NCBI RefSeq assembly: GCF_001412615.1
Contig: NZ_CP013011.1
Location: forward strand, 1 to 32,000
DNA length: 32,000 nt
Direction of reading: 5' to 3'
Source of the DNA: Pyrodictium delaneyi
GTDB lineage: Archaea > Thermoproteota > Thermoprotei_A > Sulfolobales > Pyrodictiaceae
In this document: positions 1 to 12,809 of the stretch, in pieces
Layout: each line of letters starts with the position of its first letter
Numbering within the stretch: the first letter of the stretch is position 1
Translations under genes and position numbers: made by a program
Notes under the pieces: generated by a model
Told to the model about the DNA's origin: nothing
The model's database searches: none
What the model saw: the letters and a program-made list of their open reading frames with translations, nothing else

Positions 1-11
1 GCACCGCCGCG

Positions 12-638
12 TCACCCCTCTGCCGCCGTGCTTGCTGGCTTGTTGGCCGCCAGCGGAGTGACGTAGCGGTCGAGCCCGCTCGGCTCCTGCTGCTCCGCCG
101 TCACCTTGAGGCGCTTGTCCTTGACGAGCTCGGGGTTCCTGGTGATGGTGATGAGCCAGCCTAGGATGCTGCGGAACTGTATGAGCCAGTGTATCGACGC
201 CTCTGCCGCGCGCCGCACGTACTCGTAGTCCAGCTTGCTCGGGCTGTCCATGCTGCTGAGCTCCTTCTCTATCTCGCTGAGCCTGACGCGGTTCAGCTCC
301 AGGGCCTCGCCGAGCGCCTTGTTGAGCCACTCCAGCACTGCCAGTATCACCGTGGGACGGGGCACGTAGACGCAGGGCGCCCCGCCAGCGCTGTAGCAGC
401 CCATGAACACGTCGGGACTCTCCTCGGCCAGCACGCCCAGCAGCCGCTGGATGTCCACAGTGCCCTCGAGCGCCCTGCCACGCTGAATGTCCAGCACCAC
501 AACGTCCATAGAGCCGCCGCCCACGCTCACTCGGACAGGGTTGCCGAACTCGCCGCCCACATCGTACCAGCGCCGCTCCCCGCCAGCCTTCCCCCTGACC
601 ACGGGAAGCCAACCATTACCGCCAGCCATCGTCACCAC
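12..638 (-). CDS. Hypothetical protein (provirus), 208 aa from GTG 638; ATG at 629 is an alternative start
   Basis: Long ORF with protein-like composition. A GGGGGTGGTGA SD-like run lies just upstream. Its start overlaps the stop of the upstream small ORF (TGGTGACGATG). Confidence 0.55.
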   Translation of the reverse strand: MVTMAGGNGWLPVVRGKAGGERRWYDVGGEFGNPVRVSVGGGSMDVVVLDIQRGRALEGTVDIQRLLGVLAEESPDVFMGCYSAGGAPCVYVPRPTVILAVLEWLNKALGEALELNRVRLSEIEKELSSMDSPSKLDYEYVRRAAEASIHWLIQFRSILGWLITITRNPELVKDKRLKVTAEQQEPSGLDRYVTPLAANKPASTAAEG

Positions 639-757
639 CCCCTCTTCACCACCTTCTCGTAGTAGTCGTGGGCGCCACGGAACCCCATGCAGCGGTCATA
701 GCACTCCTTGTTGTCGCCGCAGACCACGTGGCACGAGTCCCACCGAGACAGCACCAT
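632..757 (-). CDS. Small Cys-rich protein, 41 aa (MVLSRWDSCHVVCGDNKECYDRCMGFRGAHDYYEKVVKRGW), not in the ORF track
   Basis: Hand translation. ATG is preceded by GAGGGGTGA. The stop overlaps the start of the next gene. A C-x3-C-x5-C-x3-C pattern suggests a small metal-binding or disulfide module. Confidence 0.35.
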   Translation of the reverse strand: MVLSRWDSCHVVCGDNKECYDRCMGFRGAHDYYEKVVKRGW

Positions 758-764
758 CACCCGC

Positions 765-935
765 TCACCCCTCGGTCTCGTCCCTGTAGCGCAACGTCAC
801 CACGACCTCGAGATCTGTGCCTGGGACGTCGAAGCTGGCGCTGACGTGCGTGGCGCCGAGCCTCTCCAGCAGCGCCTTCATAGCACGCAGCAGCTCCCCG
901 TCCACAGGCAGCCTCTGCTGCAGAACCTGCACCAC
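765..935 (-). CDS. Small hypothetical protein, 56 aa (VVQVLQQRLPVDGELLRAMKALLERLGATHVSASFDVPGTDLEVVVTLRYRDETEG), not in the ORF track
   Basis: Hand translation. The GTG start lies 3 nt after GGGGGTGA, which also contains the stop of the upstream 84-aa ORF. Composition is far more protein-like than the Arg/Gly-rich 757..942 frame in the track. Confidence 0.4.
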   Translation of the reverse strand: MVQVLQQRLPVDGELLRAMKALLERLGATHVSASFDVPGTDLEVVVTLRYRDETEG

Positions 936-938
936 GGG

Positions 939-1193
939 TCACCCCCTTGGGCAGACAAGCTCAGCGATGAAGCGCGCATACCCGAGCTTGTAGGCCAGGT
1001 AGACCTTCTCCACGGGCGTCAGCTCCTCGCTGTTCAGTATCTCCTCGAGCACCTCGCTGACCTTGCTGTGCTCACGTACCCACTTCGCCAGCATGCCTGC
1101 TAGATCCTTGTGGCGCGCATCGTCTATCCCCAGCGCTTCCTCGACCGTCCTCTTGCTGTGGTCGAACCTGTAGGTGAACCGCACCATCCCCAT
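939..1193 (-). CDS. Hypothetical protein, 84 aa (provirus)
   Basis: ORF with balanced helical composition. It belongs to the same-strand chain of tightly packed ORFs. Confidence 0.55.
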   Translation of the reverse strand: MGMVRFTYRFDHSKRTVEEALGIDDARHKDLAGMLAKWVREHSKVSEVLEEILNSEELTPVEKVYLAYKLGYARFIAELVCPRG

Positions 1194-1199
1194 CCACCC

Positions 1200-1427
1200 C
1201 TAGGCCTTCCTCATCAAGGACCTGACAATCTTCGTCCTGAAGCCGTAGCTGCGTAGTATCCTCGCCATCTCCCTGGCGGTAGCCGCTGACTTGGCTTCGA
1301 GCACCACGCTGTCGGAGAGCGCATATGTTGTGAACCTTGCACCGAAACGAAGCGCTACATCGAAGACCTTCCCGACGCCGTCGCAGTCCTTAACTGGATA
1401 AGTGAACACATAGTATATCCTCGCCAC
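1200..1427 (-). CDS. Hypothetical small alpha/beta protein, about 75 aa from GTG 1427 (ORF open to 1472)
   Basis: GTG 1427 lies 7 nt downstream of AGGGGTGA and just after the stop of the RHH gene. The alternating beta/alpha-like pattern (ARIYYVFTYPV...VVLEAKSAATAREMARILRSYG) is protein-like. Confidence 0.5.
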   Translation of the reverse strand: MARIYYVFTYPVKDCDGVGKVFDVALRFGARFTTYALSDSVVLEAKSAATAREMARILRSYGFRTKIVRSLMRKA

Positions 1428-1440
1428 CGCGCGGTCACCC

Positions 1441-1668
1441 CTAGGCAGTGGCTGGAGCAGCCAGCCCAGCACGGGCTACCTTGCCGTGCATCCTCGCTAT
1501 CTTGCTGCGAAGCTGCTCGCTTAGCGTGCCAGTTGTTATCAACTCTACTATCGCTCTGGCTCCTAGCTCGTATATCTCATACTTCTTCATACCCAGGTCT
1601 ACAGCGAGGTGCTCTATAGTTCGGTCGAGCTCGGTGTCTACGTAGACCGACACGCGGGTGCGACTCAT
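1441..1668 (-). CDS. Ribbon-helix-helix (CopG/Arc-like) DNA-binding protein, about 75 aa from ATG 1668
   Basis: N-terminus MSRTRVSVYVDTELDRTIEHLAVDLGMKKYEIYELGARAI fits the RHH beta-strand/helix/helix pattern. GGGGTGGAG lies before the ATG. The TATA/operator module at 1706-1732 lies upstream. Confidence 0.6.
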   Translation of the reverse strand: MSRTRVSVYVDTELDRTIEHLAVDLGMKKYEIYELGARAIVELITTGTLSEQLRSKIARMHGKVARAGLAAPATA

Positions 1669-1705
1669 GGTTCTCCACCCCTGCGCACACGCGCAGTCGT
1701 GTAAC

Positions 1706-1732
1706 TGTACAGTTGCGCAGAAGTATAAAAGC
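1706..1732 (-). promoter_or_regulatory. Promoter module copy 1: TATA box (minus strand GCTTTTATAC) followed by pseudo-palindrome TGCGCAACTGTACA
   Basis: This 27-nt block is 23/27 identical to 2314-2340. It sits about 40-60 nt upstream of the RHH gene start. Confidence 0.6.
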
Positions 1733-1733
1733 A

Positions 1734-2294
1734 TTACTGAGTCTCGTCCAGGAAGCGCTGAAGAATGTTTATGACTCTGCGGATGGACTTCGCGTAGTTC
1801 ATAATAGCGTAGCGGTATAGCACGCTCTGCTTTTCAAGGGTAGAAACTAGCTCTTCGAGTTCGTGGACAGCTTTGCGCACCTTCTCCAGGTCCAGCTCTG
1901 CCTTCTGCTCCACCTTCTGCTCGACATGATGCACGTTAAGGTTGACAACTATCTGGCTGGCCTCGCTTATCTTCTGAATCTCAGCGCCAGAGAGCCTAGC
2001 GGTCGCCGCTATCGCTGCTCCTATGCTCTTCTTGAGAAGCTCCATGCGCCGCCTGTCTTCCCTGACAAACTTCTTATAGATGATCTTGTAGGCGAGAGGG
2101 AGTCTTATGCATAGTACATCTGTTGTCGAGAAGAGGTCCTGGGTGCTTAGGAGCCCCTCTATCTCCTTCCTAACTTGCTCTTCGGGAGTGTATACAGTAT
2201 ACATACTGTATACAGGCGCCCCTTCAGAATAGGGGGGAGAGCTATCTTCGGGTTCATGCTCATTTGCTCTTCTGAGCTTGCCCTCTTCATGCAT
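1734..2294 (-). CDS. Hypothetical protein, 186 aa, helical/coiled-coil-like C-terminal half (provirus)
   Basis: ATG start lies about 20-45 nt downstream of promoter module copy 2. The charged heptad-like stretch (EQKVEQKAELDLEKVRKAVHELEELV) is protein-like. Confidence 0.55.
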   Translation of the reverse strand: MHEEGKLRRANEHEPEDSSPPYSEGAPVYSMYTVYTPEEQVRKEIEGLLSTQDLFSTTDVLCIRLPLAYKIIYKKFVREDRRRMELLKKSIGAAIAATARLSGAEIQKISEASQIVVNLNVHHVEQKVEQKAELDLEKVRKAVHELEELVSTLEKQSVLYRYAIMNYAKSIRRVINILQRFLDETQ

Positions 2295-2313
2295 AACTGC
2301 ACACCAGTACAGA

Positions 2314-2340
2314 TGTACAATTGTGCACTAGTATAAAAGC
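2314..2340 (-). promoter_or_regulatory. Promoter module copy 2: TATA box plus pseudo-palindrome TGCACAATTGTACA
   Basis: Paralogous to 1706-1732, with the same spacing between TATA and palindrome. It lies directly upstream of the 186-aa gene. Confidence 0.6.
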
Positions 2341-2384
2341 GCTTAGGAGTACCTAAATAGATACACAACAGCATAGTAGAAGTG

Positions 2385-2398
2385 GTGCACAATTGTGA
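2385..2398 (+). promoter_or_regulatory. Third, inverted copy of the operator (GTGCACAATTGTGA) overlapping the start of the wHTH gene
   Basis: 12/14 match to the reverse complement of the copy-2 palindrome. A TATA-like CCTAAATAGATA at 2352-2363 lies about 25-30 nt upstream, implying a leaderless transcript starting near GTG 2395. Confidence 0.5.
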
Positions 2399-2640
2399 GC
2401 ATCGAGAAGCGCAGTCTCAAAGGCCAGATAAGGCTAATACTAAAGATGATGCAGATACTGGCTGAGAAGGAGCTTAACTTCAAGCAGATAGCCGAGGAGC
2501 TAGCCGTGCAGGAGAGGACAGTAAGCAAGTACGCAGAACTCCTCTATGATCTAGGCTTTGCAGACATAGAAATACGGGGCCCCAACAAGATAGTAAAGCT
2601 TACAGAAAAAGGACGATGTATAGTAAAATGCTTAGGCTAA
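2395..2640 (+). CDS. Winged helix-turn-helix transcription regulator, 81 aa (GTG start)
   Basis: LNFKQIAEELAVQERTVSKYAELLYDLGFADIEIRGPNKIVKLTEKG is a classic HTH plus wing pattern. The gene is divergent from the RHH/186-aa genes and shares their operator. Confidence 0.65.
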   Translation: MSIEKRSLKGQIRLILKMMQILAEKELNFKQIAEELAVQERTVSKYAELLYDLGFADIEIRGPNKIVKLTEKGRCIVKCLG

Positions 2641-2811
2641 GCCTAGCTCGCTACGCAGCTCGTCAAGGCTCATCTGCCTAATATGCTCCTTAACCAGAGT
2701 GTACCTTTTCCACGCATCCTCGAGATCCCTAGCCTTGGTGAAGACTTCATCCTCTATGAGCTCTAGTAGTCTTAGGATCTCTGCCTGTGTGCAGCCCACG
2801 GCTAGTCCCAT
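2632..2811 (-). CDS. Small hypothetical protein, 59 aa (MGLAVGCTQAEILRLLELIEDEVFTKARDLEDAWKRYTLVKEHIRQMSLDELRSELGLA)
   Basis: This is the only protein-like part of the 252-aa track ORF. It starts at ATG 2811, downstream of the 166-aa gene. Confidence 0.4.
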   Translation of the reverse strand: MGLAVGCTQAEILRLLELIEDEVFTKARDLEDAWKRYTLVKEHIRQMSLDELRSELGLA

Positions 2812-2882
2812 ATCTTGGAGTGCAGATGGGAGTGGATGAGGGAGAGGGGCGACATGATGTAAAAAGCTGGGCTGGGGGTGGG

Positions 2883-3383
2883 CTACTTCTCTGGTGTGCA
2901 TATGACGCCGTATGTGTAGCCTATTGCTGTCTTGCCGTCTACTAGGCCCTCTATGTGCAGCGAGTATGTCGCTCCTGGCTTGCATGGCTTGTCCAGCTCT
3001 ATCGCTATCTTGTAGCTGCCTGCGCCCTGTAGCTCCACGGTCTTGTCTACTATTCCGTTCCCTACGAGCACGTGTATCGCCGTGCAGTTCCTGTTGTAGA
3101 TGTTCAGCTCCAGGCGGTCGGAGCGCAGCATCGGCATACCTGTGACGCTGAACGCGCAGTAGGCCTCCTCCACGGGCTGCTCCTGCTTCACCACGGTGAC
3201 GCCGCTCGCAGTGGCGGTGGATGCCGTCGCCGCGTGGGTCGCTGTCGTGGCCGTTGTGGCTGCCTCCGTGGCTGTAGTTAGGGCTGTTGTAGTGCTTGTG
3301 GTCGCTGGCGTCTGCTGGGTGAGTATGTAGGCCGCTGCGGCTAGGGCTAGCGCAGCCAGCGCGGCGGCCAGAACCTTGTGCAA
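2883..3383 (-). CDS. Secreted or membrane-anchored protein with a Thr/Ala-rich linker and a C-terminal beta-rich domain, 166 aa (TTG start)
   Basis: N-terminal hydrophobic segment AAALAALALAAAAYIL is followed by TPATTSTTTALTTATEAATTATTATHAATASTATAS. A TATA-like TATATT lies about 28 nt upstream. Confidence 0.65.
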   Translation of the reverse strand: MHKVLAAALAALALAAAAYILTQQTPATTSTTTALTTATEAATTATTATHAATASTATASGVTVVKQEQPVEEAYCAFSVTGMPMLRSDRLELNIYNRNCTAIHVLVGNGIVDKTVELQGAGSYKIAIELDKPCKPGATYSLHIEGLVDGKTAIGYTYGVICTPEK

Positions 3384-3422
3384 GACCCATCAGTATTACC
3401 TATTCGCAATATAGGGGCTGGG

Positions 3423-5321
3423 CTAAAAAGGCAGAAGAGAACGTATGAATGCTACTACTGCACGCATCTTCTCCAGTATCCATGAGAAGAACTCGACCAC
3501 CTTGAAGGGGTCATAGACTAGTATCGCTACTACTAGCGCTGGGAACAGAGCCACCATTGCCTGCATTACTGGCCCCAGCAGCGTCACCTGCGATGCCGCC
3601 GCTCTAAACAAGTCCACGAACTTCCCGAAGAAGCTCCACACGTCGCTCATCAGATCCTTGAGCGGCTCTGGTATGAGGGCGGATACTCCCTGGACAATGT
3701 AGCTTCCAACGCTCTTCAGCGCGTCGTATAGTGGCGCGAAGACCGCCCGAAGCGCCCGTACCAAGGGGTTGGCGGGCTGGCTGGCGGTGTCGGGCCACAC
3801 GAGTACATCCACGTAGTATACTAGGTAGTAGCGTCTCGTTGCGTCCTCGAGCTTCACAGTCCACACGAACGTGAAGTTCGTGCTAGCATCCACGCTGGGC
3901 AGTTGGTCAGCGTAGCGGAAGGCTGGATCCCCAGCCCACAGGGTAGCGAAGCTCCTCTCCGTGATATCGAGTTCTCCGCCGTAGTAGCTAGTCCATGACA
4001 TACTGGTATCCGCGGGGTCGAAGCTGGTAGTCCACGACCATGACACCTGGGCGCACACGTAGTCGCTCACTGTGTGGTTGCTCTCGGTGACAACCATGCC
4101 GCTGGCCACGTCTACGGGCCACTCGCTGGACAACAGGTTCTCGAAGACTATCCACTCCGTGGCAGTCCCCGAGACCCCGCCAATCTGCCCGTTGAAGCCT
4201 ATGGGGAGCTGGGAGCCGCTTAGCGGGCTGATTACTACGTATTCCTCTTTCCTGCCGCCACATGTCGCTATTGTTAAGTTGTCGTAGGTGAAGTTGTAGG
4301 TGAAGCCCGTGGCGTCCGCTGTGCCAGTGTCGACTGTTGCACAATCGCCGAAGCAGTAGACGCTGCCGTCTCCAGGGATCGGGAATGTTAGGCTTATCGT
4401 TATCGTTGCTGTGAAGTTTGCTATCGAGGTATCGTTAACCCTTAGGTCTAGACCATAGGTGAATGGCGGGTGCGACAATGCGCCATAGTTTGTGAAGTTA
4501 TAGGCATTGAATATAGAGTCTATGGTGACGCTGTAGCTGCTGGGCGCTATCCAGGATGGTGGCTGCACGTAGATGCCCACGAGCCGTGTAATGTAGGAGC
4601 CATCGGCGCTATAGTAGTAGTAGAAGAAGTCCGAGGGAGACGCTAGGATACTGACAGTCCATGTAACTTTTACATAGTCGCCTGTAGCATCAACGACTAT
4701 GCGCTGGCTGGTTATCGTGATCGTGCCCGTCTTGTATGCTAGCGTCCACTCCTTGGTGAACACTTGAGTTACTAGTCCTGTGGTGTTCTCTACTCTCGTG
4801 CCCACAAAGGCTATAGGGTCTATGGTTGTACCGTTCTCGAGCACATAACCAGGTGCATATATGTATGTGAAACTCACTCTGCCACGTATAGTATTGTTGA
4901 ACGGGTTGAACATCACGTATGTATCATCATCTGCTTTCTCGCCATATAGTGTTGAGCGCACGTACTCGTGAATGTTCACCACGAAGTATGTCTCGTTTAT
5001 CAAGTCCGCTATAGTGTATGCCCTAGCGGTTTGCGTGGCGCTCGAGGATAGCGCTCTCCTCACTGGCTCGGGTAGGTGCCCCTGCCCCACTACCCAAAGC
5101 CTACCATGCTTATCCAGCACTGTGTAAAGCTGCTTACCCTTCCAGACCTTGAGCATCCACTCTAGCTGCTCCCTCGAGAAGTAGTCGTATATCCAGTGGG
5201 AGCCCCCGAAGAGAAGCTCTGGCTCCGTGACTCCTAGCGCCGCCAGTATGCTAGCCGCGTGGCTGTAGAGGACTAGGAATGTCAGTATGCCCGCTGCCAG
5301 CGCCCTCCGTAGCTTCCCCAC
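3423..5321 (-). CDS. Large envelope/fibre-like glycoprotein candidate, 632 aa, hydrophobic N- and C-termini
   Basis: GTG start abuts GGAGGTGAT. N-terminal signal/TM segment is ALAAGILTFLVLY. C-terminal hydrophobic segments are LLGPVMQAMVALFPALVVAILVY. I counted 11 N-x-S/T sequons by eye (NET, NNT, NGT, NTT, NFT x4, NDT, NLT, NHT). Confidence 0.8.
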   Translation of the reverse strand: MGKLRRALAAGILTFLVLYSHAASILAALGVTEPELLFGGSHWIYDYFSREQLEWMLKVWKGKQLYTVLDKHGRLWVVGQGHLPEPVRRALSSSATQTARAYTIADLINETYFVVNIHEYVRSTLYGEKADDDTYVMFNPFNNTIRGRVSFTYIYAPGYVLENGTTIDPIAFVGTRVENTTGLVTQVFTKEWTLAYKTGTITITSQRIVVDATGDYVKVTWTVSILASPSDFFYYYYSADGSYITRLVGIYVQPPSWIAPSSYSVTIDSIFNAYNFTNYGALSHPPFTYGLDLRVNDTSIANFTATITISLTFPIPGDGSVYCFGDCATVDTGTADATGFTYNFTYDNLTIATCGGRKEEYVVISPLSGSQLPIGFNGQIGGVSGTATEWIVFENLLSSEWPVDVASGMVVTESNHTVSDYVCAQVSWSWTTSFDPADTSMSWTSYYGGELDITERSFATLWAGDPAFRYADQLPSVDASTNFTFVWTVKLEDATRRYYLVYYVDVLVWPDTASQPANPLVRALRAVFAPLYDALKSVGSYIVQGVSALIPEPLKDLMSDVWSFFGKFVDLFRAAASQVTLLGPVMQAMVALFPALVVAILVYDPFKVVEFFSWILEKMRAVVAFIRSLLPF

Positions 5322-5334
5322 ATCACCTCCCCCG

Positions 5335-5622
5335 CTAGTAGATAATCAGTATCAGTACCGCAATCGGGCCGAACACGATAATCAGAGTAGCAATGATATC
5401 GACTAGCCCGCTAAGGTCTAGCACTACTGTCTTGTCCACCCAGGCAGTACCATTGTACTCCTTCACGGGGATAGTTATCGTCGAGAAACCGTTAGCGTTA
5501 ATCGTGTTAACAATGCTGTTCTTAGCTGCTATCGCTATGTCCAACAGGAATCCGTAGTAGACCACGAGGCTTATCAATCCTATAGCGAGGAGCTGCACCT
5601 TACGCTGAAGACTCCGCCTCAT
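5335..5622 (-). CDS. Small membrane protein, 95 aa, two hydrophobic helices, NGT sequon in the loop
   Basis: The ATGA overlap couples it to the 78-aa gene. Its C-terminal half (TVVLDLSGLVDIIATLIIVFGPIAVLILII) resembles the VDLS...hydrophobic helix region of the 78-aa protein. Confidence 0.65.
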   Translation of the reverse strand: MRRSLQRKVQLLAIGLISLVVYYGFLLDIAIAAKNSIVNTINANGFSTITIPVKEYNGTAWVDKTVVLDLSGLVDIIATLIIVFGPIAVLILIIY

Positions 5623-5855
5623 ATCTCGACACCCAGGTCTCTTAGGCCGCTAATGATTAGGAGAAGTGGTGCAAACACCTTCACGAGATCCCACATCACG
5701 CTTAGATCGACTGTCGTGCTGCCGATGGTTACTGCGCTGAGATCCATGTTGATGTTGCCTAGTATCGCTGCTATGGCTCCCGCTAGTCCAAGCTTCACTA
5801 TCCCTCGCAGAATCCGTCCAAGCCATGTGTTTGATACTGCGCTCTGCCAGGACAA
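5619..5855 (-). CDS. Small hydrophobic two-helix protein, 78 aa, capsid-protein-like paralog (TTG start)
   Basis: GGGGAG SD-like run lies 5 nt upstream. It shares GLAxxIxA, NM..GST.V.DL and GLR(D/K)xGV blocks with the 64-aa protein. Confidence 0.65.
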   Translation of the reverse strand: MSWQSAVSNTWLGRILRGIVKLGLAGAIAAILGNINMDLSAVTIGSTTVDLSVMWDLVKVFAPLLLIISGLRDLGVEI

Positions 5856-5864
5856 GACACTCCC

Positions 5865-5921
5865 CGACTAGAGTCGAATAAGAAAAAAGATTCTGGGATA
5901 AGACTGTTTCGACTCTAGTCG
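5865..5921. repeat. Perfect 14-bp inverted repeat (CGACTAGAGTCGAA / TTCGACTCTAGTCG) flanking a 29-nt loop that carries a T-run on the minus strand
   Basis: Read directly. It lies between the 64-aa and 78-aa genes. Minus-strand TCTTTTTTCTTATT may act as a terminator and/or a TATA-like element. Confidence 0.6.
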
Positions 5922-5925
5922 AAGG

Positions 5926-6120
5926 CTAGAGGCTCACGCCAGCCTTCCTCAGACCCTTAAAGAATAGGGCTAGTCCACCGAACGCTAGACCGAGCCCAGG
6001 AATGAAGCCTAGATCTATAGTCACTGTGGAGCCGCCGATTGTCATGTTGTACTGCATGTAGCCGCTTAGGGCGCTGGCGGTTGCGCCTCCTAGAGCCATT
6101 ATGGTGGCCGCTAGCCCCAT
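5926..6120 (-). CDS. Small hydrophobic two-helix protein, 64 aa, major-capsid-protein-like candidate with an NMT sequon in the inter-helix loop
   Basis: MGLAATIMALGGATASALSGYMQYNMTIGGSTVTIDLGFIPGLGLAFGGLALFFKGLRKAGVSL. The architecture (two hydrophobic helices, glycosylatable loop, about 60-75 aa) matches fusellovirus VP1/VP3-type capsid proteins. Confidence 0.65.
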   Translation of the reverse strand: MGLAATIMALGGATASALSGYMQYNMTIGGSTVTIDLGFIPGLGLAFGGLALFFKGLRKAGVSL

Positions 6121-6226
6121 GGTTACTAGGCCTATGAAGAGGTTCCTGCTGTACTTGCCTATGGTTTGCCTGCGCCTTGGCCTGTAGCGTCTGGCCAGAG
6201 TCCCACCCCGAGGCTCTCCGATTCTA

Positions 6227-6240
6227 CGACACTAGTCGAA
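6227..6240. promoter_or_regulatory. Third copy of the CGACnCTAGTCGAA palindromic motif, next to a TATA-like GATTAAATTC on the minus strand
   Basis: 13/14 match to 5910-5923. It lies in the divergent control region between the structural module (minus) and the RHH/ATPase/integrase module (plus). Confidence 0.45.
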
Positions 6241-6289
6241 AGAATTTAATCTTGGTGAATCCAGGATCATATACTGGTGACTCCGACGC

Positions 6290-6436
6290 ATGTCTAAGTC
6301 GGACTACGTGCAACGGACGGTTAGACTCCCAGCCAAGCTCGACGAGATGATAGAGCAGTACGCGAAGGAGTGGGGACTAACGTACCAGGATGCAATCGTG
6401 CACATACTCCTCGAGTGCTTCGAAGGTGAAGAGTAA
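6290..6436 (+). CDS. Ribbon-helix-helix protein, 48 aa (MSKSDYVQRTVRLPAKLDEMIEQYAKEWGLTYQDAIVHILLECFEGEE), not in the ORF track
   Basis: Hand translation. RTVRLPAKLDEMIE...AIVHILLE is the RHH signature. A TAATG stop/start overlap links it to the next ORF. Confidence 0.55.
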   Translation: MSKSDYVQRTVRLPAKLDEMIEQYAKEWGLTYQDAIVHILLECFEGEE

Positions 6437-6741
6437 TGCTGGGCTTCGGAAAGAAGGACTGTAGTCTAGACAGCTTTGGAGAAGACGAGATAGTAGAGTA
6501 CGTGGTCGCAAACCGCAGCGTTAGAGAAAAGCTCATAGAGCGTATCAAAGAGGACGTAGAGGATGCCCTCGAGGCTACGCTAGTCAACGCGATAAGGGCT
6601 GCCAACGAGAGGCCCCCGATATGGTGGCAGTGGCTCTTCCTGCTAGCAGCGGGGGCTATGGCTGGGCTTGGCCTCGGAATCGTGATTGCGATGAAAACGG
6701 GCATTGCTGGCGGGCCTAGTCTACCGCCGCCGCCAGGGTGA
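6436..6741 (+). CDS. Hypothetical protein with a C-terminal TM anchor, 101 aa
   Basis: WWQWLFLLAAGAMAGLGLGIVIAM hydrophobic segment. The ORF is translationally coupled on both sides. Confidence 0.55.
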   Translation: MLGFGKKDCSLDSFGEDEIVEYVVANRSVREKLIERIKEDVEDALEATLVNAIRAANERPPIWWQWLFLLAAGAMAGLGLGIVIAMKTGIAGGPSLPPPPG

Positions 6742-7082
6742 TCCCCGTGTCTGCCCCAGGGCCCACGGGCGACTATGGCTTTGCAGTCAAGGAGCTACTA
6801 GAGTATCTGCGGAATAAGGGCCAGATCTGGAGCGCTGCCCAGCTCGCTAGCATCCTGGCGATAGACCACTATGTGCGGAGCCGCTACAGGGTAGACCTTG
6901 GTCTGCAGAAGCTCGTCGACGACTGGGTAAGACATAGCGTCATAGAGGCTGCCAGGTTCGAGACCGTTGCGCAGCGTAACGCCAGCGTCGTAGCCAAGCT
7001 CGCTGCCCAGGTGAACTACGTAGAGGAGCAAGGTACACGGACGCGTGTGCTCCCCCTGGGTAGGAGAAGGAAGGAACAGTAG
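6738..7082 (+). CDS. Hypothetical protein, 114 aa, possibly wHTH-like (GTG start overlapping the upstream stop)
   Basis: GTGA overlap with the upstream ORF. Composition is protein-like (AVKELLEYLRNKGQIWSAAQLASILAI). Confidence 0.5.
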   Translation: MIPVSAPGPTGDYGFAVKELLEYLRNKGQIWSAAQLASILAIDHYVRSRYRVDLGLQKLVDDWVRHSVIEAARFETVAQRNASVVAKLAAQVNYVEEQGTRTRVLPLGRRRKEQ

Positions 7083-7097
7083 TATATGGTGTAAGCC

Positions 7098-7730
7098 TTG
7101 CAGGCCGCCGCAGCGGAGACCGCAGCGCTCGAGATACGCAGTGCCAGGCTGCGCTGGGTACGCCCTCTCCACCAGATCAACATAGTCGGGGTAATGGGCG
7201 CGGGCAAGACAACACTGCTCATGAAGCTCTGGGCTCTCTTCAAGCGCAATCACAGGCCCGCGACAAGCATCTACTTCCAGTTCGAGCGAGACCTGCTGGA
7301 CGAGTTCTGGGAAGCAGTGAAGAGCATAGAGACTCCCTACGCCTACGTGGCTATAGACGATATTAGCTTCGCCCTGAGCCGCGGGGATAGGGAATTCCTC
7401 CACAGCCTAACCAAGATACGCCATCTCAACCGCAGGGTGAAGAAGTGGGTAGTAGCCACTGCCATGCACTACGGCAAGGCTACTCTCCCATTCCTGCGAC
7501 AGAGCCACACCAAGGTGCTGCTGAGCCTAGTAGAGCCAGAGGAGATCGAGAGCCTACGCTGGAGCTTTACGGTGCAGGCTCTCTGGGACTACTACTACGT
7601 CTATGTCAGCGATCCACTAGGCCACTGGGCGCTCTTCAACTGGCTCGGCCAGATCTTCATAACACGGATACACAAGCCGCGCCGCGTACGATGCTGGGAC
7701 ATAGTTGTTAATGGGCCCGAGTGCGTCTAG
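7098..7730 (+). CDS. P-loop NTPase, 210 aa (TTG start)
   Basis: Walker A is GVMGAGKTTL and Walker B-like is YVAIDDISF. It lies immediately upstream of the integrase-N fragment. Confidence 0.75.
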   Translation: MQAAAAETAALEIRSARLRWVRPLHQINIVGVMGAGKTTLLMKLWALFKRNHRPATSIYFQFERDLLDEFWEAVKSIETPYAYVAIDDISFALSRGDREFLHSLTKIRHLNRRVKKWVVATAMHYGKATLPFLRQSHTKVLLSLVEPEEIESLRWSFTVQALWDYYYVYVSDPLGHWALFNWLGQIFITRIHKPRRVRCWDIVVNGPECV

Positions 7731-7922
7731 GTGGTGTTCATGCTCATAGAGGAGTATCTGATACGCATGCTTGAAGAGGATAGGGAGCTGCGGGAGCTGG
7801 CTAGGCAGCTGCCAGCGGATAGGCTGCGCGTGGCAGTGGAGCGGGCGCTTGCCTCTGCCAGGCAGGCAGCCTACACGGAGTTCAAGAGGAGCCTCAGAGC
7901 CATGCTGCTGCAATCCTGCTAG
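7731..7922 (+). CDS. Small helical hypothetical protein, 63 aa (GTG start abutting the ATPase stop)
   Basis: The TAGGTG junction with the ATPase gene suggests coupling. Composition is helical and charged. Confidence 0.4.
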   Translation: MVFMLIEEYLIRMLEEDRELRELARQLPADRLRVAVERALASARQAAYTEFKRSLRAMLLQSC

Positions 7923-8036
7923 TGTTGCAGTCGAGCTTCTTCCCCGTTGTTGCAGCAGAGCAATTCCGCCACGTAGCCTGACAGGTCTCTGATGAGGAGT
8001 TGGAGTATTCCTGAGCAGTGCGGGGTGGACTGAAAC

Positions 8037-8345
8037 ATGGTGCTGCAACCCATGTACGTGTATATCCGCAGCGTGCGCCGCGGTAAACGCGTCCACCGCT
8101 ACCTTGTGGTCGAAGAGTACCTAGGATCTGGTAGGCGCCGCACTCTTCTCCGCCTGCCAGCAGAAGAGGCAGGCAAACTACTCCTAGAGCTGGCAAGGAG
8201 AGGCATCTACAGCCAAGCAGAGTTAGAGAGGGTGTGGTGCGGGGGGTGGGATTTGAACCCACGCAGGCCTACGCCAGCGGGTCCTCAGCCCGCCCCCTTT
8301 GACCTGGCTCGGGCACCCCCGCACCCAGGTTGCTGGGCCGTGTAG
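8037..8345 (+). pseudogene. N-terminal fragment of a split SSV-type tyrosine integrase, Int(N), reading through attR/tRNA-Leu
   Basis: MYVYIRSVRRGKRVHRYLVVEEYLGSGRRR...LPAEEAGKLL resembles the basic beta-hairpin-like N-terminus of SSV1-type integrases. From about codon 67 the ORF is simply the antisense translation of the tRNA gene (GGWDLNPRRP from GGGATTTGAACCC). This is expected when attP lies inside the int gene. Confidence 0.55.
8235..8322 (-). tRNA. tRNA-Leu (anticodon GAG), class II, CCA encoded
   Basis: Folded by hand. Acceptor GCGGGGG/CCCCCGC. Anticodon stem GCGGG/CCCGC with loop CUGAGGA. Long variable arm. T-arm GUGGG-UUCAAAU-CCCAC. Discriminator A plus CCA. Confidence 0.9.
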
Positions 8346-8384
8346 AGAGCTGGGATAGAGAGGAGGGTTTTTGAAGCTTAACGG

Positions 8385-8501
8385 TGGCGCCGGGGGCGGG
8401 ATTTGAACCCGCGCGCCCCTCCACGGGGCAGTGGGTCTCCCGACCCCTGGAGCCGGAAAAGGTCTCGAGCCCACCGCCTTGGACCGCTCGGCCACCCCGG
8501 C
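8385..8501 (-). tRNA. tRNA-Ser (anticodon CGA) with an intron of about 27 nt at the canonical 37/38 position (about 8437-8463), CCA encoded
   Basis: Acceptor GCCGGGG/CCCCGGC. D-arm GCCG-AGCGGUCCAA-GGC. Anticodon stem GUGGG/CCCAC with CUCGAG, the intron, then A. Long variable arm UGCCCCGUGGAGGGGCGC. T-arm GCGGG-UUCAAAU-CCCGC. Confidence 0.85.
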
Positions 8502-8575
8502 ACCCATGAGCCGTATTCTAGAGATACCTAGTTAGGGGGCTTTTACCCCTTGCTTACATCTATGTGCTGTTATAG

Positions 8576-9493
8576 CTATACCGGCACATAGATTGGGTTA
8601 CTGTCTGTTGCTACGTCATTATAGCTGTCTAGTATACTGCGTATTGGCTTTGGCAGCGTGAACATCCATTGATGTGTTACACCGTCATAGAAGCGGAGTT
8701 CTCCCCTGATGCGCTCCTTTATCAGTTTGTCCACTGCGTCAGGGCTGAGATTAGACGGGTCTATGCTATTCGACGCCGCAACGAACCCCCATACACCGTT
8801 ATAGCTTCTGACATACGTTATGTATGGCCTTGTTATATTGAACACAGAGGCTATGGTGTTTCTGATGGTGGCGTAGACCCGTGGCGTTAATATAGGAGAC
8901 GAAGCTTGTGTCACCATAGCGCCTCCCGGCTTGAGTACCCTAGATACGAGCCTATAGAATTCTAGTGTATATAGCAGTGCTGCTGGCCCACCCTCCATGG
9001 GGTCGACAAGGTCTAGAATCACAATATCAAACTCCATATCGGTTGTGCTAAGGAATTTCCTTCCATCATCTAGAACTAGCTTTAGCTTTTCATTATCAAA
9101 AGCTCCCTGGTGCCATTCAGGTAGGTACTTCTTTGCCAGCTCTATTAGCTCGGCATCTATGTCTACCATTACCACTTGCTCGACACACTTGTGTTTAAGC
9201 ACCTCACGCGCTGTAGCACCTTCACCACCACCAATTATCAGAACATCCTTCGGGCATTCATGCGCAATCATTATTGGGTGTACAAGCGCTTCATGATACC
9301 AATGCTCATCAAACAAACTGCTCTGAACCTTCCCATCTAGCACCAGAGACTTACCTATTCCAGCTAGCTCGCCGATAAGGTACTCCTGGAACTTAGTCGC
9401 ACCAGCAGCATATACTTTCTCGACACTCCTAATGCACGCTTCGCCCTCGGTAATCCACTCAGCAACTATTCTCCATGGGAGTTTTTGCCCCAA
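8576..9493 (-). CDS. speE: Spermidine synthase / polyamine aminopropyltransferase, 305 aa (TTG start)
   Basis: LVLDGKVQSSLFDEHWYHEALVHP, VLIIGGGEGATAREVLKH and VMVDID are the SpeE family signatures. Confidence 0.9.
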   Translation of the reverse strand: MGQKLPWRIVAEWITEGEACIRSVEKVYAAGATKFQEYLIGELAGIGKSLVLDGKVQSSLFDEHWYHEALVHPIMIAHECPKDVLIIGGGEGATAREVLKHKCVEQVVMVDIDAELIELAKKYLPEWHQGAFDNEKLKLVLDDGRKFLSTTDMEFDIVILDLVDPMEGGPAALLYTLEFYRLVSRVLKPGGAMVTQASSPILTPRVYATIRNTIASVFNITRPYITYVRSYNGVWGFVAASNSIDPSNLSPDAVDKLIKERIRGELRFYDGVTHQWMFTLPKPIRSILDSYNDVATDSNPIYVPV

Positions 9494-9798
9494 GATCCTA
9501 TACCCCCTACCCAGAGCTTGCCGGAGTTCTCGTAACGGCTAGCGCCTCCTCTCCGGGAAACCCAAGTGACGGCAGCGGCGCTAGAGGGGGAGTATAAACA
9601 CGGTGCAGGATGAGTAGCTTTCTGGAGCAGTGTTACACTCTATAGTTACTTCGGTAATACAACACACTCCATGAACAGAAACAGAATGGACAAATGAACG
9701 CCACGTATCTCTAAAATCTGGTGACTTGCAACAGAAAAGCAGACTCGAATAGGACTACCATGCTAGTTTTGGTGTCGCAATTCGGAGAACTTGAGGAG

Positions 9799-9876
9799 TG
9801 GTGGGCCCGCGGGGATTTGAACCCCGGACCTCCGCCGTGTAAGGGCGGCGTCCTAACCAGGCTAGACGACGGGCCC
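9799..9876 (-). tRNA. tRNA-Val (anticodon UAC), CCA encoded
   Basis: Acceptor GGGCCCG/CGGGCCC. Anticodon stem CCGCC/GGCGG with loop CUUACAC. T-arm CGGGG-UUCAAAU-CCCCG. Discriminator A plus CCA. Confidence 0.9.
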
Positions 9877-10075
9877 ACCCGCGGGCCTCCACCATCAAAC
9901 TCATGGGGAGGGGTCGGGGTTATTAAGCTCTACGTTTAGTAGGCTGCCCCTACTAGCGTTACATATGGATAAGTATTACTTATAGAGGCCTTCTCTAAGT
10001 TTACTAGCTTTATCCAGAGACCTAGGCGGGAGTAATTAAGTATGGATGACCCCACTCCGACTTTTAGGCCAGTAA

Positions 10076-10148
10076 GGGGGATGACGAGGTTCGCTAGGGG
10101 CGAGCACTATTTTGGCGATGAGCAAGTATGGCGGAGGCTGACCTCCCC
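10076..10148 (+). ncRNA. Candidate C/D-box sRNA
   Basis: C-like box AUGACGA (10081-87), 12-nt spacer, GCGA (D'-like), C'-like GCGAUGA (10115-21) and D box CUGA (10138-41). A 5-bp terminal stem pairs GGGGG with CCUCC. The second spacer is 16 nt rather than 12. Confidence 0.3.
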
Positions 10149-10193
10149 GGTTACACTGCTAACGTTTGGTACGTTTGGTCATGGCTACTAAGC

Positions 10194-11729
10194 CTAGCCT
10201 AGGCTTCCTCTTATTACTCCGGCACGCGCTATAGCTTGCTCGGCTGCCTCCTTTATGCCGAGCTTTATTGCGCGCTCGGCGCTTCGGAGCGTCTCTATGT
10301 ACTCCTCCTGGGGCTCTGGCGCGTTACCACCAATGAAGTCCCTAGTTATCGCTATGTCCTCCTTTAGTAGTTGTAGAGCCTTCTCGTCCTTAATGTAGCT
10401 CATTACTACTTCTGGGACATAGAACCTTATGTCGTATTCCGCGTCGCGCCTCAGGAGCGGTAGTACTTTTAGCAGATACTCTACAGCCTCGCTGCCTAGC
10501 TCTTTCTCTATTCTCTTGAGGCCTCTGCCTAGCCCGATTAGCGATGGTGGTATACCCATCGTGTAGAGACTGGCCGCATAGGATATTGCCCGAGGGAGTT
10601 TAAGGTCTCTAGGCGGCTTCATGGATAGGAGTTCCTTCTCCGCTGCGAACGCCAGGCTCTTGTCAATGCTGCGAGGGTATTCTCCATGCGAGAGTCTCGC
10701 TCTTCTTCGAGGTACAAAGGACGCCACATGAGGTATTAACTCGATTATACGCAACACGAACCTAAGGTATTCTGCCGTGAATAGCTTAGCTATGTTTATC
10801 AGCAGCTTTTCCTCATCCGCGCTCAGTATACGCGGTCTCTCATGTAGATTGTCTAGAAGTACATTCACAACCTTCTCGACTGCACGAGGACCTTGGTCAT
10901 ACCTTATGCCAGACTGTATTGTCGCAGTAGAGTATCCTCTATATTGCTTCACGAATATGTCAACGCTCCATGGGGACAAATGACCACGGAATGGCAGCGC
11001 GCCTACACCCATTATCGGGTGAACTCTAGTGTTCTCGTCCTCGGCCCACTTGTAGAGCCGCGAGAGAGCATAGACCAGCGCTATACTCGAAGCAGGATGC
11101 CCATAGGCTAAGGCCGTATCTGACTTGCCTAGGAGAACCCTATAGTGGCTATAGTGTAGCCCTAGGTGCGTAAGGAGCGCATTCTTCATACCTTCAAGGA
11201 TCTTATCTACATGGAGTAGCGACTCCATATCTTCGACGAGGGGTATAACCTCTATATAGCCTGTCTTTACACCTAGCTCTTCCTCCGCAAGACGTTGCAT
11301 CTTAAGGATTCTCCTCTGCAACACATAGACCTCATACCCGCTAGAACACATTGGAGTTATAATGTATCTTACTGCTGGCGAGCCGGCTTTGACGATAGAC
11401 TTCTTATTAGCTACTAACACGCCCCAAAGCACCATAATCTGGCGTTCCGGCTCCTCTAGCCTCTCCGAAGGTATGCGTGGTGTCAGTAGGAAGTCCTCAC
11501 CAGGCTGTAGACCATGCCGCAGGGTCTCCTCTACAACCCAGGCTACCTGATGGTACGGTGTGAGCTTACCCTCATAATCTATCATTTTTTCGTCAAGGCC
11601 CAAGCCACCACGACTGCGGGGGAGTAGATCGCGTAGAGCTTCCTCTACCTCCTCCTCTACACTGAACCCCCGACTAGCCGAATCCGGATGCTGAGTAGCC
11701 ATCGCCAGAGGTACTGGATACCCTAGCAC
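10194..11729 (-). CDS. ppcA: Archaeal-type phosphoenolpyruvate carboxylase, 511 aa
   Basis: The N-terminal VPLAMATQHPDSA motif and a length of about 510 aa are characteristic of the archaeal-type PEPC family. Confidence 0.85.
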   Translation of the reverse strand: MLGYPVPLAMATQHPDSASRGFSVEEEVEEALRDLLPRSRGGLGLDEKMIDYEGKLTPYHQVAWVVEETLRHGLQPGEDFLLTPRIPSERLEEPERQIMVLWGVLVANKKSIVKAGSPAVRYIITPMCSSGYEVYVLQRRILKMQRLAEEELGVKTGYIEVIPLVEDMESLLHVDKILEGMKNALLTHLGLHYSHYRVLLGKSDTALAYGHPASSIALVYALSRLYKWAEDENTRVHPIMGVGALPFRGHLSPWSVDIFVKQYRGYSTATIQSGIRYDQGPRAVEKVVNVLLDNLHERPRILSADEEKLLINIAKLFTAEYLRFVLRIIELIPHVASFVPRRRARLSHGEYPRSIDKSLAFAAEKELLSMKPPRDLKLPRAISYAASLYTMGIPPSLIGLGRGLKRIEKELGSEAVEYLLKVLPLLRRDAEYDIRFYVPEVVMSYIKDEKALQLLKEDIAITRDFIGGNAPEPQEEYIETLRSAERAIKLGIKEAAEQAIARAGVIRGSLG

Positions 11730-12803: not shown

Positions 12804-12809
12804 CACATC

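What the first reader, a model, noticed from the sequence alone, without database searches (positions are those of the whole stretch)
1..8345. Partial provirus with fusellovirus-like architecture integrated at tRNA-Leu(GAG)
About 8.2 kb next to the 3' end of tRNA-Leu contains no housekeeping-like gene. It holds a regulatory module (RHH, wHTH, repeated operators) and a structural module (three small two-helix hydrophobic proteins, a 632-aa sequon-rich protein, a Thr-rich secreted protein). A second plus-strand module runs RHH, TM protein, P-loop ATPase and integrase-N fragment. Gene packing with ATGA/TAATG/GTGA overlaps is virus-like. None of the proteins is recognisably close to a described virus by eye, so this may be an undescribed spindle-type virus lineage of a Desulfurococcales-like host.
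Basis: partly seen in the sequence, partly recalled or inferred. Interest (0 to 1): 0.8.

Follow-up and report, generated by a model that had tools for sequence, protein, structure and literature searches.

The report
New small provirus family in Pyrodictium
The first 8.2 kb of the window is most of a roughly 10-kb virus-like element inserted into a leucine tRNA gene of the hyperthermophile Pyrodictium delaneyi; it belongs to a previously undescribed family of very small integrating elements found in hydrothermal-vent archaea.

Summary
The window is the start of the Pyrodictium delaneyi Su06 chromosome. Bases 1-8234 are an insertion next to tRNA-Leu(GAG). The near-identical strain Hulk (99.87% over window 8225-19493) has an empty site there.

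ORF 8037-8345 is the N-terminal half of an SSV-type integrase, 54% identical to that of the guttavirus APOV1. The matching C-terminal half is Pyrde_2039. Its protein accession directly follows that of Pyrde_2038, the gene that flanks the empty site in Hulk, so the provirus crosses the origin of the circular record.

The element is neither a fusellovirus nor a guttavirus. Apart from the integrase, no protein matches SSV1, APSV1 or APOV1.

It belongs to a new family, with about 30 ATPase homologues in vent and hot-spring data. Members include a closed 7,584-bp circle with an intact integrase gene and a complete 9,051-bp provirus flanked by 61-bp repeats.

The shared core is:
- the integrase
- a small FtsK/HerA-type ATPase, with STIV B204, APBV1 and NSV proteins as best fold matches
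- an RHH protein
- two small proteins
- 3-4 paralogous two-helix membrane proteins
- a membrane-anchored glycoprotein with a variable middle

That it forms virions is inferred, and its shape is unknown.

The parts
12..638 (-). Pyrde_0001, a 205/208-aa protein of unknown function. It is the left-most element gene in the window, in a region of 62-66% G+C.
   Evidence: It is 100% identical to the gene in the Hulk copy, L123 14690-15307. It has no Pfam or PHROG hit.
939..1193 (-). Pyrde_0003, an 82/84-aa protein of unknown function.
   Evidence: In Hulk the homologue is split by a 160-nt tandem duplication.
1200..1472 (-). Pyrde_0004, a 75/90-aa protein of unknown function.
1441..1734 (-). Putative RHH regulator, at the start of the variable regulatory module.
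   Evidence: Weak RHH_1 match, E 0.036. It is 46% identical over 48 aa to an ORF in the small related element L018. It is absent from the Hulk copy.
1734..2294 (-). Pyrde_0006, 156-186 aa, unknown function. RefSeq starts the gene at about 2204.
   Evidence: phrog_11638, E 1.5e-8. It has a homologue in L131, 4736-5194. The RefSeq 156-aa form was retrieved.
2295..2394 (.). Divergent promoter/operator region.
   Evidence: Inverted pair ACAATTGTGCAC/GTGCACAATTGT at 2317 and 2385, a TATAAAAG box at about 2333, and a palindrome at 2189-2214 over the RefSeq start codon.
2395..2640 (+). Winged-helix regulator (Pyrde_0007).
   Evidence: HTH_11, E 1.4e-5, and phrog_11046. The Hulk copy has a different wHTH at the same position.
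2632..2844 (-). Small conserved gene of about 59-70 aa. The exact start is uncertain.
   Evidence: 48% identity over 69 aa by tblastx to a Pyrodictiaceae MAG locus (L030) that also carries an Int(C) next to a partial att.
2883..3383 (-). 166-aa Thr-rich secreted protein (Pyrde_0009).
   Evidence: Signal-like segment at residues 1-23 and 15.7% Thr. It is 98.8% identical in Hulk. It is not part of the family core.
3423..5321 (-). 632-aa membrane-anchored, sequon-rich protein (Pyrde_0010). Proposed adsorption/fusion protein.
   Evidence: Hydrophobic segments at both ends and 11 sequons. A core family of only 13 cluster representatives among 1.84 billion. The N-terminal region and the C-terminal ~250 aa are conserved, and the middle is variable or absent. 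dN/dS is 0.26 against Hulk.
5335..5622 (-). 95-aa two-helix membrane protein (Pyrde_0011).
   Evidence: It is a core gene in all five elements compared.
5619..5855 (-). 78-aa two-helix membrane protein, a paralogue.
5926..6120 (-). 64-aa two-helix membrane protein, a paralogue. Relatives carry an Arg-rich N-terminal arm.
6121..6289 (.). Divergent intergenic region between the structural operon and the ATPase/integrase operon.
   Evidence: A CGACACTAGTCGAA copy at 6227. Two more copies of the motif lie at 5865 and 5910.
6290..6436 (+). 48-aa RHH (Arc/CopG-like) protein, a core gene.
   Evidence: phrog_582, E 3e-6. 45-88% identical in L123, L127 and L129, and present in all five elements.
6436..6741 (+). 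101-aa single-TM protein, a core gene.
   Evidence: 65-72% identical in L127 and L129. One TM segment.
6738..7082 (+). 114-aa protein, a core gene of unknown function.
   Evidence: 71% identical in L129 and present in 4 of the 5 elements.
7098..7730 (+). 210-aa P-loop ATPase (Pyrde_0016) with an FtsK/HerA (B204/A32-like) fold.
   Evidence: About 30 homologues. AF2 model with pLDDT 91. Best PDB matches are the STIV and STIV2 B204 packaging NTPases, TM 0.53-0.55. Best viral match is APBV1 D4QF80, 26% identity, E 8e-9, followed by an NSV protein and A32-like ATPases. tblastn E 9e-6 to Nitrosopumilaceae spindle-shaped virus records.
7731..7922 (+). 63-aa protein, found in P. delaneyi only.
   Evidence: 98% identical in Hulk.
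8037..8345 (+). Int(N), the N-terminal fragment of a split SSV-type integrase. It reads antisense through the tRNA. Residues 1-87 are viral.
   Evidence: 54% identity over 87 aa to the APOV1 integrase, E 5e-28. About 51% identity to the intact integrases of L127 and L129. Alignment.
8235..8298 (.). att core, 64 bp: the 3' two-thirds of tRNA-Leu, including the anticodon.
   Evidence: APOV1 attP matches 8234-8298 at 95%. The att of L124 is exact over 8235-8298 and then diverges. In the relative L131 the equivalent 61 bp is the direct repeat.
8235..8322 (-). tRNA-Leu(GAG), the integration target (attR side).
   Evidence: Identity with strain Hulk ends about 10 nt past its 3' end.

Best explanation
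Window 1-8234 is the larger part of a temperate, virus-like circular dsDNA element of about 9.5-10 kb, integrated in the Pyrodictium delaneyi Su06 chromosome.

**Integration (shown, except attL).** An SSV-type tyrosine recombinase recombined a 64-bp attP, which lies inside its own gene, with the 3' two-thirds of tRNA-Leu(GAG). The tRNA stays intact because attP carries the same sequence, anticodon included. The int gene is split into two pieces:
- Int(N), at 8037-8298, at the tRNA end.
- Int(C), which is Pyrde_2039, at the other end. That end lies beyond window base 1, at the end of the circular chromosome record.

**Family (shown).** The element belongs to an undescribed family of small integrating elements (7.6-9.1 kb measured in relatives) in hyperthermophilic Thermoproteota. 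Two divergent operons are conserved:
- RHH, a 101-aa TM protein, a 114-aa protein, the ATPase and int.
- 3-4 paralogous two-helix membrane proteins, followed by a large membrane-anchored glycoprotein.

**Inferred.**
- The two-helix proteins build a lipid-associated capsid or envelope, as the alpha-helical hairpin capsid proteins do in clavaviruses and spindle-shaped viruses.
- The large protein, with its swappable middle, is the receptor-binding or fusion protein.
- The B204/A32-like ATPase moves or packages the genome.
- The RHH and wHTH proteins, with the palindromic repeats, set lysogeny. The wHTH module is exchangeable, like an immunity region.
For: **It is an insertion.**
- Strain Hulk is 99.87% identical over window 8225-19493 and then continues with other genes.
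- Those Hulk genes (DUF87 ATPase, RPB9, AMP phosphorylase, a 111-aa ORF) correspond to ALL02078-ALL02081 in Su06, that is, up to Pyrde_2038. ALL02082 is Pyrde_2039, the Int(C).
- Pyrde_0001 is the first gene of the window.

**The integrase looks functional.**
- Int(N) is 54% and Int(C) 46% identical to the APOV1 integrase.
- The catalytic residues are aligned.

**The element is mobile and mosaic.**
- Hulk carries a second copy elsewhere, 97.9-99.8% identical over most of its length.
- dN/dS between the two copies is 0.14-0.35.

**The family exists.**
- About 30 ATPase homologues.
- L129 is a closed 7,584-bp circle with an intact int gene.
- L127 has an intact int gene with a tRNA-like attP inside it.
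- L131 is a complete provirus with 61-bp direct repeats 9,051 bp apart.
- Eight core gene families are shared among the five elements compared.

**Protein properties.**
- ATPase fold.
- Membrane protein topology and paralogy.
- Glycoprotein domain pattern.
Against: - The DNA between Pyrde_2039 and the end of the record could not be read. The attL repeat and the total length of the Su06 element are therefore inferred from relatives and from protein accession order.
- No capsid protein homologue of any isolated virus was found: Pfam, PHROGs, phmmer and hhalign were all negative.
- No replication protein was identified.
- The model of the 632-aa protein is poor (pLDDT 54), and its fold search was meaningless.
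- The ATPase fold match is moderate (TM about 0.55) and does not fix its function.
- No virion, excised circle or induction has been shown for P. delaneyi.
- A split int gene could mean the copy is trapped in the chromosome.
Confidence: 0.7

Rival explanations
1. It is an integrative plasmid or another capsid-less mobile element, possibly spread by membrane vesicles. On this reading the membrane proteins and the ATPase serve transfer or host interaction, not virion formation.
For: - No protein is homologous to a proven capsid protein.
- SSV-type integrases also occur on archaeal plasmids and small cryptic elements. The 4.9-kb element in L018, for example, shares only int, an RHH and a wHTH with this one.
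- The genome is very small (7.6-9.7 kb).
Against: - The best sequence and fold matches of the ATPase are proteins of archaeal viruses and viral packaging ATPases.
- A conserved block of 3-4 hairpin membrane proteins plus a large anchored glycoprotein with a variable middle is typical of a virion module.
- No plasmid-type Rep, relaxase or conjugation gene is present.
Confidence: 0.2
2. It is a member of a described family: a divergent fusellovirus or a betaguttavirus like APOV1.
For: - SSV-type integrase, 54% (N part) and 46% (C part) identical to that of APOV1.
- The same kind of target, tRNA-Leu.
- A similar order of ATPase, small ORF and int, and a divergent operon that ends in a large secreted protein.
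Against: - None of the other 17 ORFs matches APOV1, APSV1 or SSV1.
- hhalign of the ATPase, large-protein and small-protein profiles against the APOV1 and SSV1 counterparts gives probabilities of 0-25%.
- The ATPase fold is FtsK/HerA-like, not DnaA-like.
- The genome is about two-thirds the size of APOV1.
Confidence: 0.05
3. It is a dead remnant: a captured provirus that can no longer excise, kept only as chromosomal cargo.
For: - The int gene is split and no free copy is known.
- The Hulk copy has no APOV1-type integrase beside it and sits in rearranged surroundings.
- No exact match was found in the metagenome or IMG/VR collections.
Against: - Both integrase halves are intact with catalytic residues.
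- All core genes are full length and under purifying selection.
- Two strains with 99.87% identical flanking DNA carry the element at different sites, so it moved recently.
- APOV1 and APSV1 are inducible despite the same split arrangement (PMC5882108).
Confidence: 0.2

Closest known systems
[quoted passage not shown]
   Same: - Closest integrase: 54% identity in the N part and 46% in the C part.
- Its attP matches window 8234-8298 at 95%.
- Same order of ATPase, small ORF and int.
- A divergent operon with small TM proteins and a large secreted protein.
- Host in the Desulfurococcales (PMC5882108).
   Different: - No other protein is homologous.
- The APOV1 ATPase is annotated DnaA-like and aligns only at the Walker motifs.
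- APOV1 is about 40% larger.
- The APOV1 virion is known; nothing is known for this element.
Fuselloviridae (SSV1 and relatives) and APSV1
   Same: - SSV-type integrase with attP inside the gene and a tRNA target.
- RHH/wHTH regulators.
- Small proteins with two hydrophobic helices next to a large glycosylated protein.
   Different: - No detectable homology to VP1/VP3, VP4 (C792) or B251.
- No other fusellovirus gene of SSV1 was detected.
- Genome of 7.6-9.7 kb against 15.5 kb for SSV1 and 38 kb for APSV1.
Aeropyrum pernix bacilliform virus 1 (Clavaviridae), and the ATPases of Nitrosopumilus/Nitrosopumilaceae spindle-shaped viruses
   Same: The best viral fold matches of the ATPase are:
- APBV1 D4QF80: 26% identity, E 8e-9.
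- An NSV protein: TM 0.61.

tblastn gives E 9e-6 to Nitrosopumilaceae spindle-shaped virus records. In those viruses the ATPase is described as a core gene (PMC10866085).

The genome is small, and the candidate capsid proteins are hairpin-type.
   Different: - APBV1 is 5.3 kb and, from my own knowledge, is not known to integrate. Its capsid protein could not be compared because the record is not in the collections.
- The NSV-like viruses have about 27-38-kb genomes and mesophilic hosts.
STIV/STIV2 B204 and A32-like genome-packaging ATPases (FtsK/HerA superfamily)
   Same: Best solved-structure match of the 210-aa ATPase: TM 0.53-0.55, E about 1e-5, similar length.
   Different: - 13-16% identity.
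- Those viruses have double jelly-roll capsids, and no candidate for that is seen here.
- The function of this ATPase is therefore inferred only.

Membership tests
SSV-type integrative element (integrase gene split on integration) | A tyrosine recombinase of the SSV1 type (PF16795) with its catalytic residues. | tested here: met
   Pyrde_2039 carries PF16795. R, K, HxxR, H and Y align with the SSV1, APOV1, L127 and L129 integrases.
SSV-type integrative element (integrase gene split on integration) | attP lies inside int, so the provirus is bounded by Int(C) at one end and Int(N) at the other. | tested here: met
   Int(N) at 8037-8345 overlaps the tRNA. The accession of Int(C), Pyrde_2039, directly follows that of Pyrde_2038, the gene that flanks the empty site in Hulk. 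The intact int gene of L127 holds a tRNA-like attP.
SSV-type integrative element (integrase gene split on integration) | Direct repeats of the tRNA 3' part at both ends (attL and attR). | tested here: inconclusive
   attR was seen. The attL DNA of Su06 could not be obtained. The feature is met in the relative L131, with 61-bp repeats 9,051 bp apart, and L124 shows att directly followed by an Int(C).
Fuselloviridae | A VP1/VP3-type major capsid protein homologue. | tested here: not met
   Pfam and PHROGs give no hit. phmmer against all SSV1, APSV1 and APOV1 ORFs gives none. hhalign probability is below 1%, the same as a reversed control. Only the two-helix topology is shared.
Fuselloviridae | A DnaA-like AAA+ ATPase (SSV1 B251). 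| tested here: not met
   hhalign aligns 20 columns at Walker A only, probability 25%. The fold is closest to FtsK/HerA-type ATPases.
Fuselloviridae | A VP4 (C792) end-filament protein homologue, and the typical genome size of a fusellovirus (SSV1: 15.5 kb). | tested here: not met
   hhalign probability 0.04%. Relatives measure 7,584 and 9,051 bp.
Fuselloviridae | A spindle-shaped virion. | not testable with these tools
   This needs electron microscopy of induced cultures.
Guttaviridae (Betaguttavirus, APOV1) | Shared gene content with APOV1 beyond the integrase. | tested here: not met
   tblastn and phmmer find only the integrase. The large protein against orf9-678 gives probability 0.2%. 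The ATPase against orf19-247 gives 12%.
Guttaviridae (Betaguttavirus, APOV1) | An ovoid or droplet-shaped enveloped virion. The family is defined by morphology (PMC5882108). | not testable with these tools
   No particle data exist.
Pleolipoviridae-like membrane virus (considered as an analogue) | Homologues of the pleolipovirus spike, membrane protein and NTPase. | tested here: not met
   PHROGs is built from viruses of bacteria and archaea. It gives no hit for the small or large proteins or the ATPase beyond Walker A. No pleolipovirus protein appears among the top 50 fold matches of the ATPase. No direct profile comparison was run.
New family defined here (P. delaneyi element, L123, L127, L129, L131) | A shared core: int, B204-like ATPase, RHH, 101-aa TM protein, 114-aa protein, two-helix paralogues and a large anchored protein, in two divergent operons. 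| tested here: met
   All-against-all BLASTP clusters. Gene maps.

The most novel reading that the evidence does not exclude
This is the first virus of Pyrodictium, a genus that from my own knowledge grows near or above 100 C, and the founder of a new family of the smallest known integrating archaeal dsDNA viruses. On this reading its helix-hairpin membrane proteins and its APBV1/NSV-like ATPase place it between rod-shaped clavaviruses and spindle-shaped viruses. That would make it a living intermediate for the proposed rod-to-spindle transition.
Probability: 0.3. Interest if true: 0.8.

Novelty: new variant of a known kind. Interest (0 to 1): 0.62.

Why it matters
- **No described virus for these hosts.** I found no virus or provirus described for Pyrodictium or the Pyrodictiaceae in the searchable literature. 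This element would extend the archaeal virosphere to one of the hottest cultivated hosts.
- **A testable system.** P. delaneyi Su06 and Hulk are cultured, and they differ by presence or absence of the element at the att site.
- **A recognisable family.** It has a compact set of eight core genes, complete circular and integrated representatives, and a clear mosaic structure in which the integrase/target, the regulator module and half of the ATPase are exchanged.
- **Possible evolutionary link.** If particles are found, the hairpin proteins and the small B204-like ATPase bear on how membrane-associated archaeal capsids (rod, ovoid, spindle) are related.
- **Annotation.** Pyrde_0001-0018 and Pyrde_2039 are one mobile element that spans the origin of the chromosome record.

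Tried and rejected
**Attempts to read the missing left end of the Su06 element. All failed.**
- Exact look-ups of Su06 proteins: the Su06 assembly is not in the gene-position index.
- Scan of genome contigs with the 111-aa flank protein: no relative found.
- Scan with a 30-mer of the tRNA 3' end. This was a poor choice of pattern, but the loci were useful as a survey of the hot spot.
- IMG/VR exact pattern: nothing.
- Two metagenome exact patterns: nothing.

**Searches that added nothing or little.**
- DNA and protein searches of the phage collection with the element, the 186-aa protein and the 632-aa protein: nothing.
- The APBV1 record is not in the collection.
- The AF2 model of the 632-aa protein is poor, with only residues ~355-510 confident. 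Its BFVD search gave TM of 0.15 or less, so I disregard it.

**Hypotheses considered and rejected.**
- The 399-aa and 256-aa genes at the right of the Hulk copy as its Int(C). There is no integrase similarity and no att repeat.
- A PRD1/STIV-like double jelly-roll virus, suggested by the ATPase fold. There is no candidate capsid gene, and the large protein has membrane anchors.

Full report
**Where the window comes from.** The 632-aa ORF is Pyrde_0010 of Pyrodictium delaneyi, on a 2,023,836-bp contig. ORF 12-638 is Pyrde_0001, ORF 939-1193 is Pyrde_0003, and the ATPase is Pyrde_0016. The window is therefore the first 32 kb of the Su06 chromosome record. Anything to the left of base 1 lies at the end of that circular record.

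**Checking the observation.**
- tRNA-Leu(GAG) is at 8235-8322 on the minus strand.
- Pfam and PHROGs confirm a wHTH (2395-2640), an RHH (6290-6436), a weak RHH (1441-1734) and a P-loop protein (7098-7730). They find nothing housekeeping.
- Hydropathy and sequon counts confirm the other claims. The 95- and 78-aa proteins have two clear hydrophobic segments, and the 64-aa protein has one strong and one weaker one. The 632-aa protein has hydrophobic ends and 11 sequons against about 3.3 expected. The 166-aa protein is Thr-rich and signal-bearing.
- Palindromic motifs recur in the two divergent intergenic regions.

**It is an insertion.**
- A contig of strain Hulk (L002) is 99.87% identical to window 8225-19493. 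Similarity ends about 10 nt beyond the 3' end of the tRNA.
- In Hulk the tRNA is followed by a 111-aa ORF, AMP phosphorylase, an RPB9-like gene and a DUF87 ATPase.
- In Su06 these same proteins are ALL02081 (Pyrde_2038), ALL02080, ALL02079 and ALL02078. The next protein, ALL02082 (Pyrde_2039), is a 285-aa SSV-type integrase C-terminal domain (PF16795), 46% identical to the APOV1 integrase.
- ORF 8037-8345 is the matching N-terminal part: 54% identical over 87 aa to the APOV1 integrase. It reads antisense through the tRNA.
- The catalytic R, K, HxxR, H and Y residues of Pyrde_2039 align with SSV1, APOV1 and the intact integrases of relatives.
- The provirus therefore runs from Pyrde_2039, across the record origin, to window 8234.
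- The attL DNA itself could not be read (see what failed).

**The att site.**
- The attP of APOV1 matches window 8234-8298 at 95%.
- A metagenome contig (L124) carries att followed in frame by an Int(C) visibly very similar to Pyrde_2039 (sequences). It is identical to the window over 8235-8298 and then diverges.
- In a relative, the equivalent 61 bp is the direct repeat.
- The core includes the anticodon. Relatives carry GAG, TAG or CAG versions that match their own target isoacceptor.

**A second copy that moved.**
- Strain Hulk carries the same element elsewhere (L123):

| Window | L123 | Identity |
|---|---|---|
| 1-1454 | 15316-13704 | 99.8% |
| 2836-7042 | 12789-8582 | 97.9% |
| 7533-7908 | 8062-7690 | 86.7% |

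- The regulatory module (window 1455-2835) and the N-terminal half of the ATPase are replaced.
- The Hulk copy abuts tRNA-Val(CAC) and has no APOV1-type integrase. Its flanks correspond to distant Su06 loci.
- Between the two copies, dN/dS is 0.14-0.35 for the 632-aa protein, the RHH, the 101-aa protein, the 114-aa protein and the ATPase. Neighbouring genes are identical, while the ATPase has dS of about 1.9.
- These are real genes under selection in a recombining mosaic, as expected of a mobile element.

**A family, not a singleton.**
- The ATPase has about 30 homologues at 49-84% identity in vent and hot-spring metagenomes and in Desulfurococcales and Acidilobaceae MAGs.
- Four contigs were read:

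| Locus | What it is |
|---|---|
| L129 | Closed circle (126-nt terminal overlap), 7,584 bp, intact 334-aa int |
| L127 | 8,405 bp, not closed; intact 372-aa int with a tRNA-Leu-like attP inside |
| L131 | Complete provirus in an Acidilobaceae MAG; 61-bp direct repeats 9,051 bp apart at tRNA-Leu(TAG) |
| L133 | A right end only |

- All-against-all BLASTP gives a core shared by the Su06, Hulk, L127, L129 and L131 elements. It comprises int, the ATPase, the RHH, the 101-aa TM protein, the 114-aa protein, the 95-aa protein, the 64/78-aa protein family and the large protein.
- Gene order is the same in all: two divergent operons plus a variable arm between int and the regulators.
- By analogy, the Su06 element should total about 9.5-10 kb. 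This is an inference.

**What the proteins look like.**
- *Small proteins.* They form one paralogous family. Each has an N-terminal helix, a short N-x-T/IG..T..DL loop and a C-terminal helix ending in GLR..GV. Some relatives carry an Arg-rich N-terminal arm or a large loop insertion.
- *Large protein.* It has a conserved N-terminal region, a conserved C-terminal ~250 aa ending in amphipathic helices and an anchor, and a middle that is unrelated or absent among relatives. An exhaustive HMMER search found only 13 cluster representatives in 1.84 billion.
- *ATPase.* The model is confident (pLDDT 91).
  - The best solved-structure matches are the STIV and STIV2 B204 packaging NTPases (TM 0.53-0.55), followed by EccC, EssC, HerA and FtsK.
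  - The best viral matches are APBV1 D4QF80 (26% identity, E 8e-9), an NSV protein and A32-like ATPases.
  - tblastn gives E 9e-6 to Nitrosopumilaceae spindle-shaped virus records. In those viruses the ATPase is described as a core gene (PMC10866085).

**Comparison with known viruses.**
- Apart from the integrase, nothing matches APOV1, APSV1 or SSV1.
- Profile comparisons with APOV1 and SSV1 counterparts are negative or limited to Walker motifs:
  - ATPase against APOV1 orf19 and SSV1 B251.
  - Large protein against APOV1 orf9-678 and SSV1 VP4.
  - Small proteins against VP1/VP3, no better than a reversed control.
- The element is therefore not a fusellovirus or a guttavirus. It resembles them in lifestyle and layout.
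- The literature I could search has no description of a Pyrodictium provirus.

**Most likely mechanism.**
- *Shown:* site-specific integration by a split SSV-type integrase into tRNA-Leu(GAG); recent mobility; a conserved family.
- *Inferred:*
  - The hairpin proteins and the anchored glycoprotein form a lipid-associated particle.
  - The ATPase packages or translocates DNA.
  - The RHH and wHTH proteins control lysogeny, with an exchangeable immunity-like module.
- The main rival is a non-viral integrative plasmid. Whether the Su06 copy can still excise is open.

**What failed.**
- The left-end DNA of Su06 could not be obtained.
- Two metagenome exact-pattern scans were empty.
- The model of the large protein was too poor for a fold search.

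Noticed in passing
L123 7253-15700 (strain Hulk, NCQP01000001.1): A near-identical second copy of the element sits on the 5' side of tRNA-Val(CAC). No APOV1-type integrase is beside it. Instead a 135-aa ORF reads through the tRNA in sense, and its HTH part is 50% identical over 38 aa to the APSV1 integrase. The flanks map to Pyrde_0686-0688 and Pyrde_1249-1253 in Su06. How this copy got there is unresolved.
   Followed up: partly
window 8388-8501 (-): tRNA-Ser(CGA) with a 27-nt intron. Rfam and ARAGORN with the intron option find it; the default ARAGORN run misses it.
   Followed up: yes
L123 14059-14378: A perfect 160-nt tandem duplication in the Hulk copy splits the homologue of Pyrde_0003 into 91-aa and 51-aa ORFs.
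   Followed up: no
L131 1706-1935 and 10700-11059: The left att of the complete relative is preceded by a second, different Int(N)-like stretch. The left end therefore carries a full-length int ORF. This suggests successive integrations at the same tRNA.
   Followed up: partly
L003-L122 (tRNA-Leu 3' ends in Thermoproteota genomes): The 30-nt 3' end of tRNA-Leu is identical in more than 120 contigs. Roughly 20 of them have Int(N) or Int(C) fragments of the APOV1-like integrase clade next to it. One is a 4.9-kb element with a decayed integrase (L018). tRNA-Leu genes are a general integration hot spot.
   Followed up: partly
outside the window: Pyrde_0075/0076, Su06: The 71-aa and 49-aa RHH genes at the far end of the Hulk copy (L123 15304-15669) have homologues of at least 90% identity at a third Su06 locus. 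This hints at further related elements in the genome.
   Followed up: no
window 1-1500: G+C of 62-66%, against about 50-58% in the rest of the element and its flanks. This part is 99.8% identical in the Hulk copy. It may be a module of different origin.
   Followed up: no
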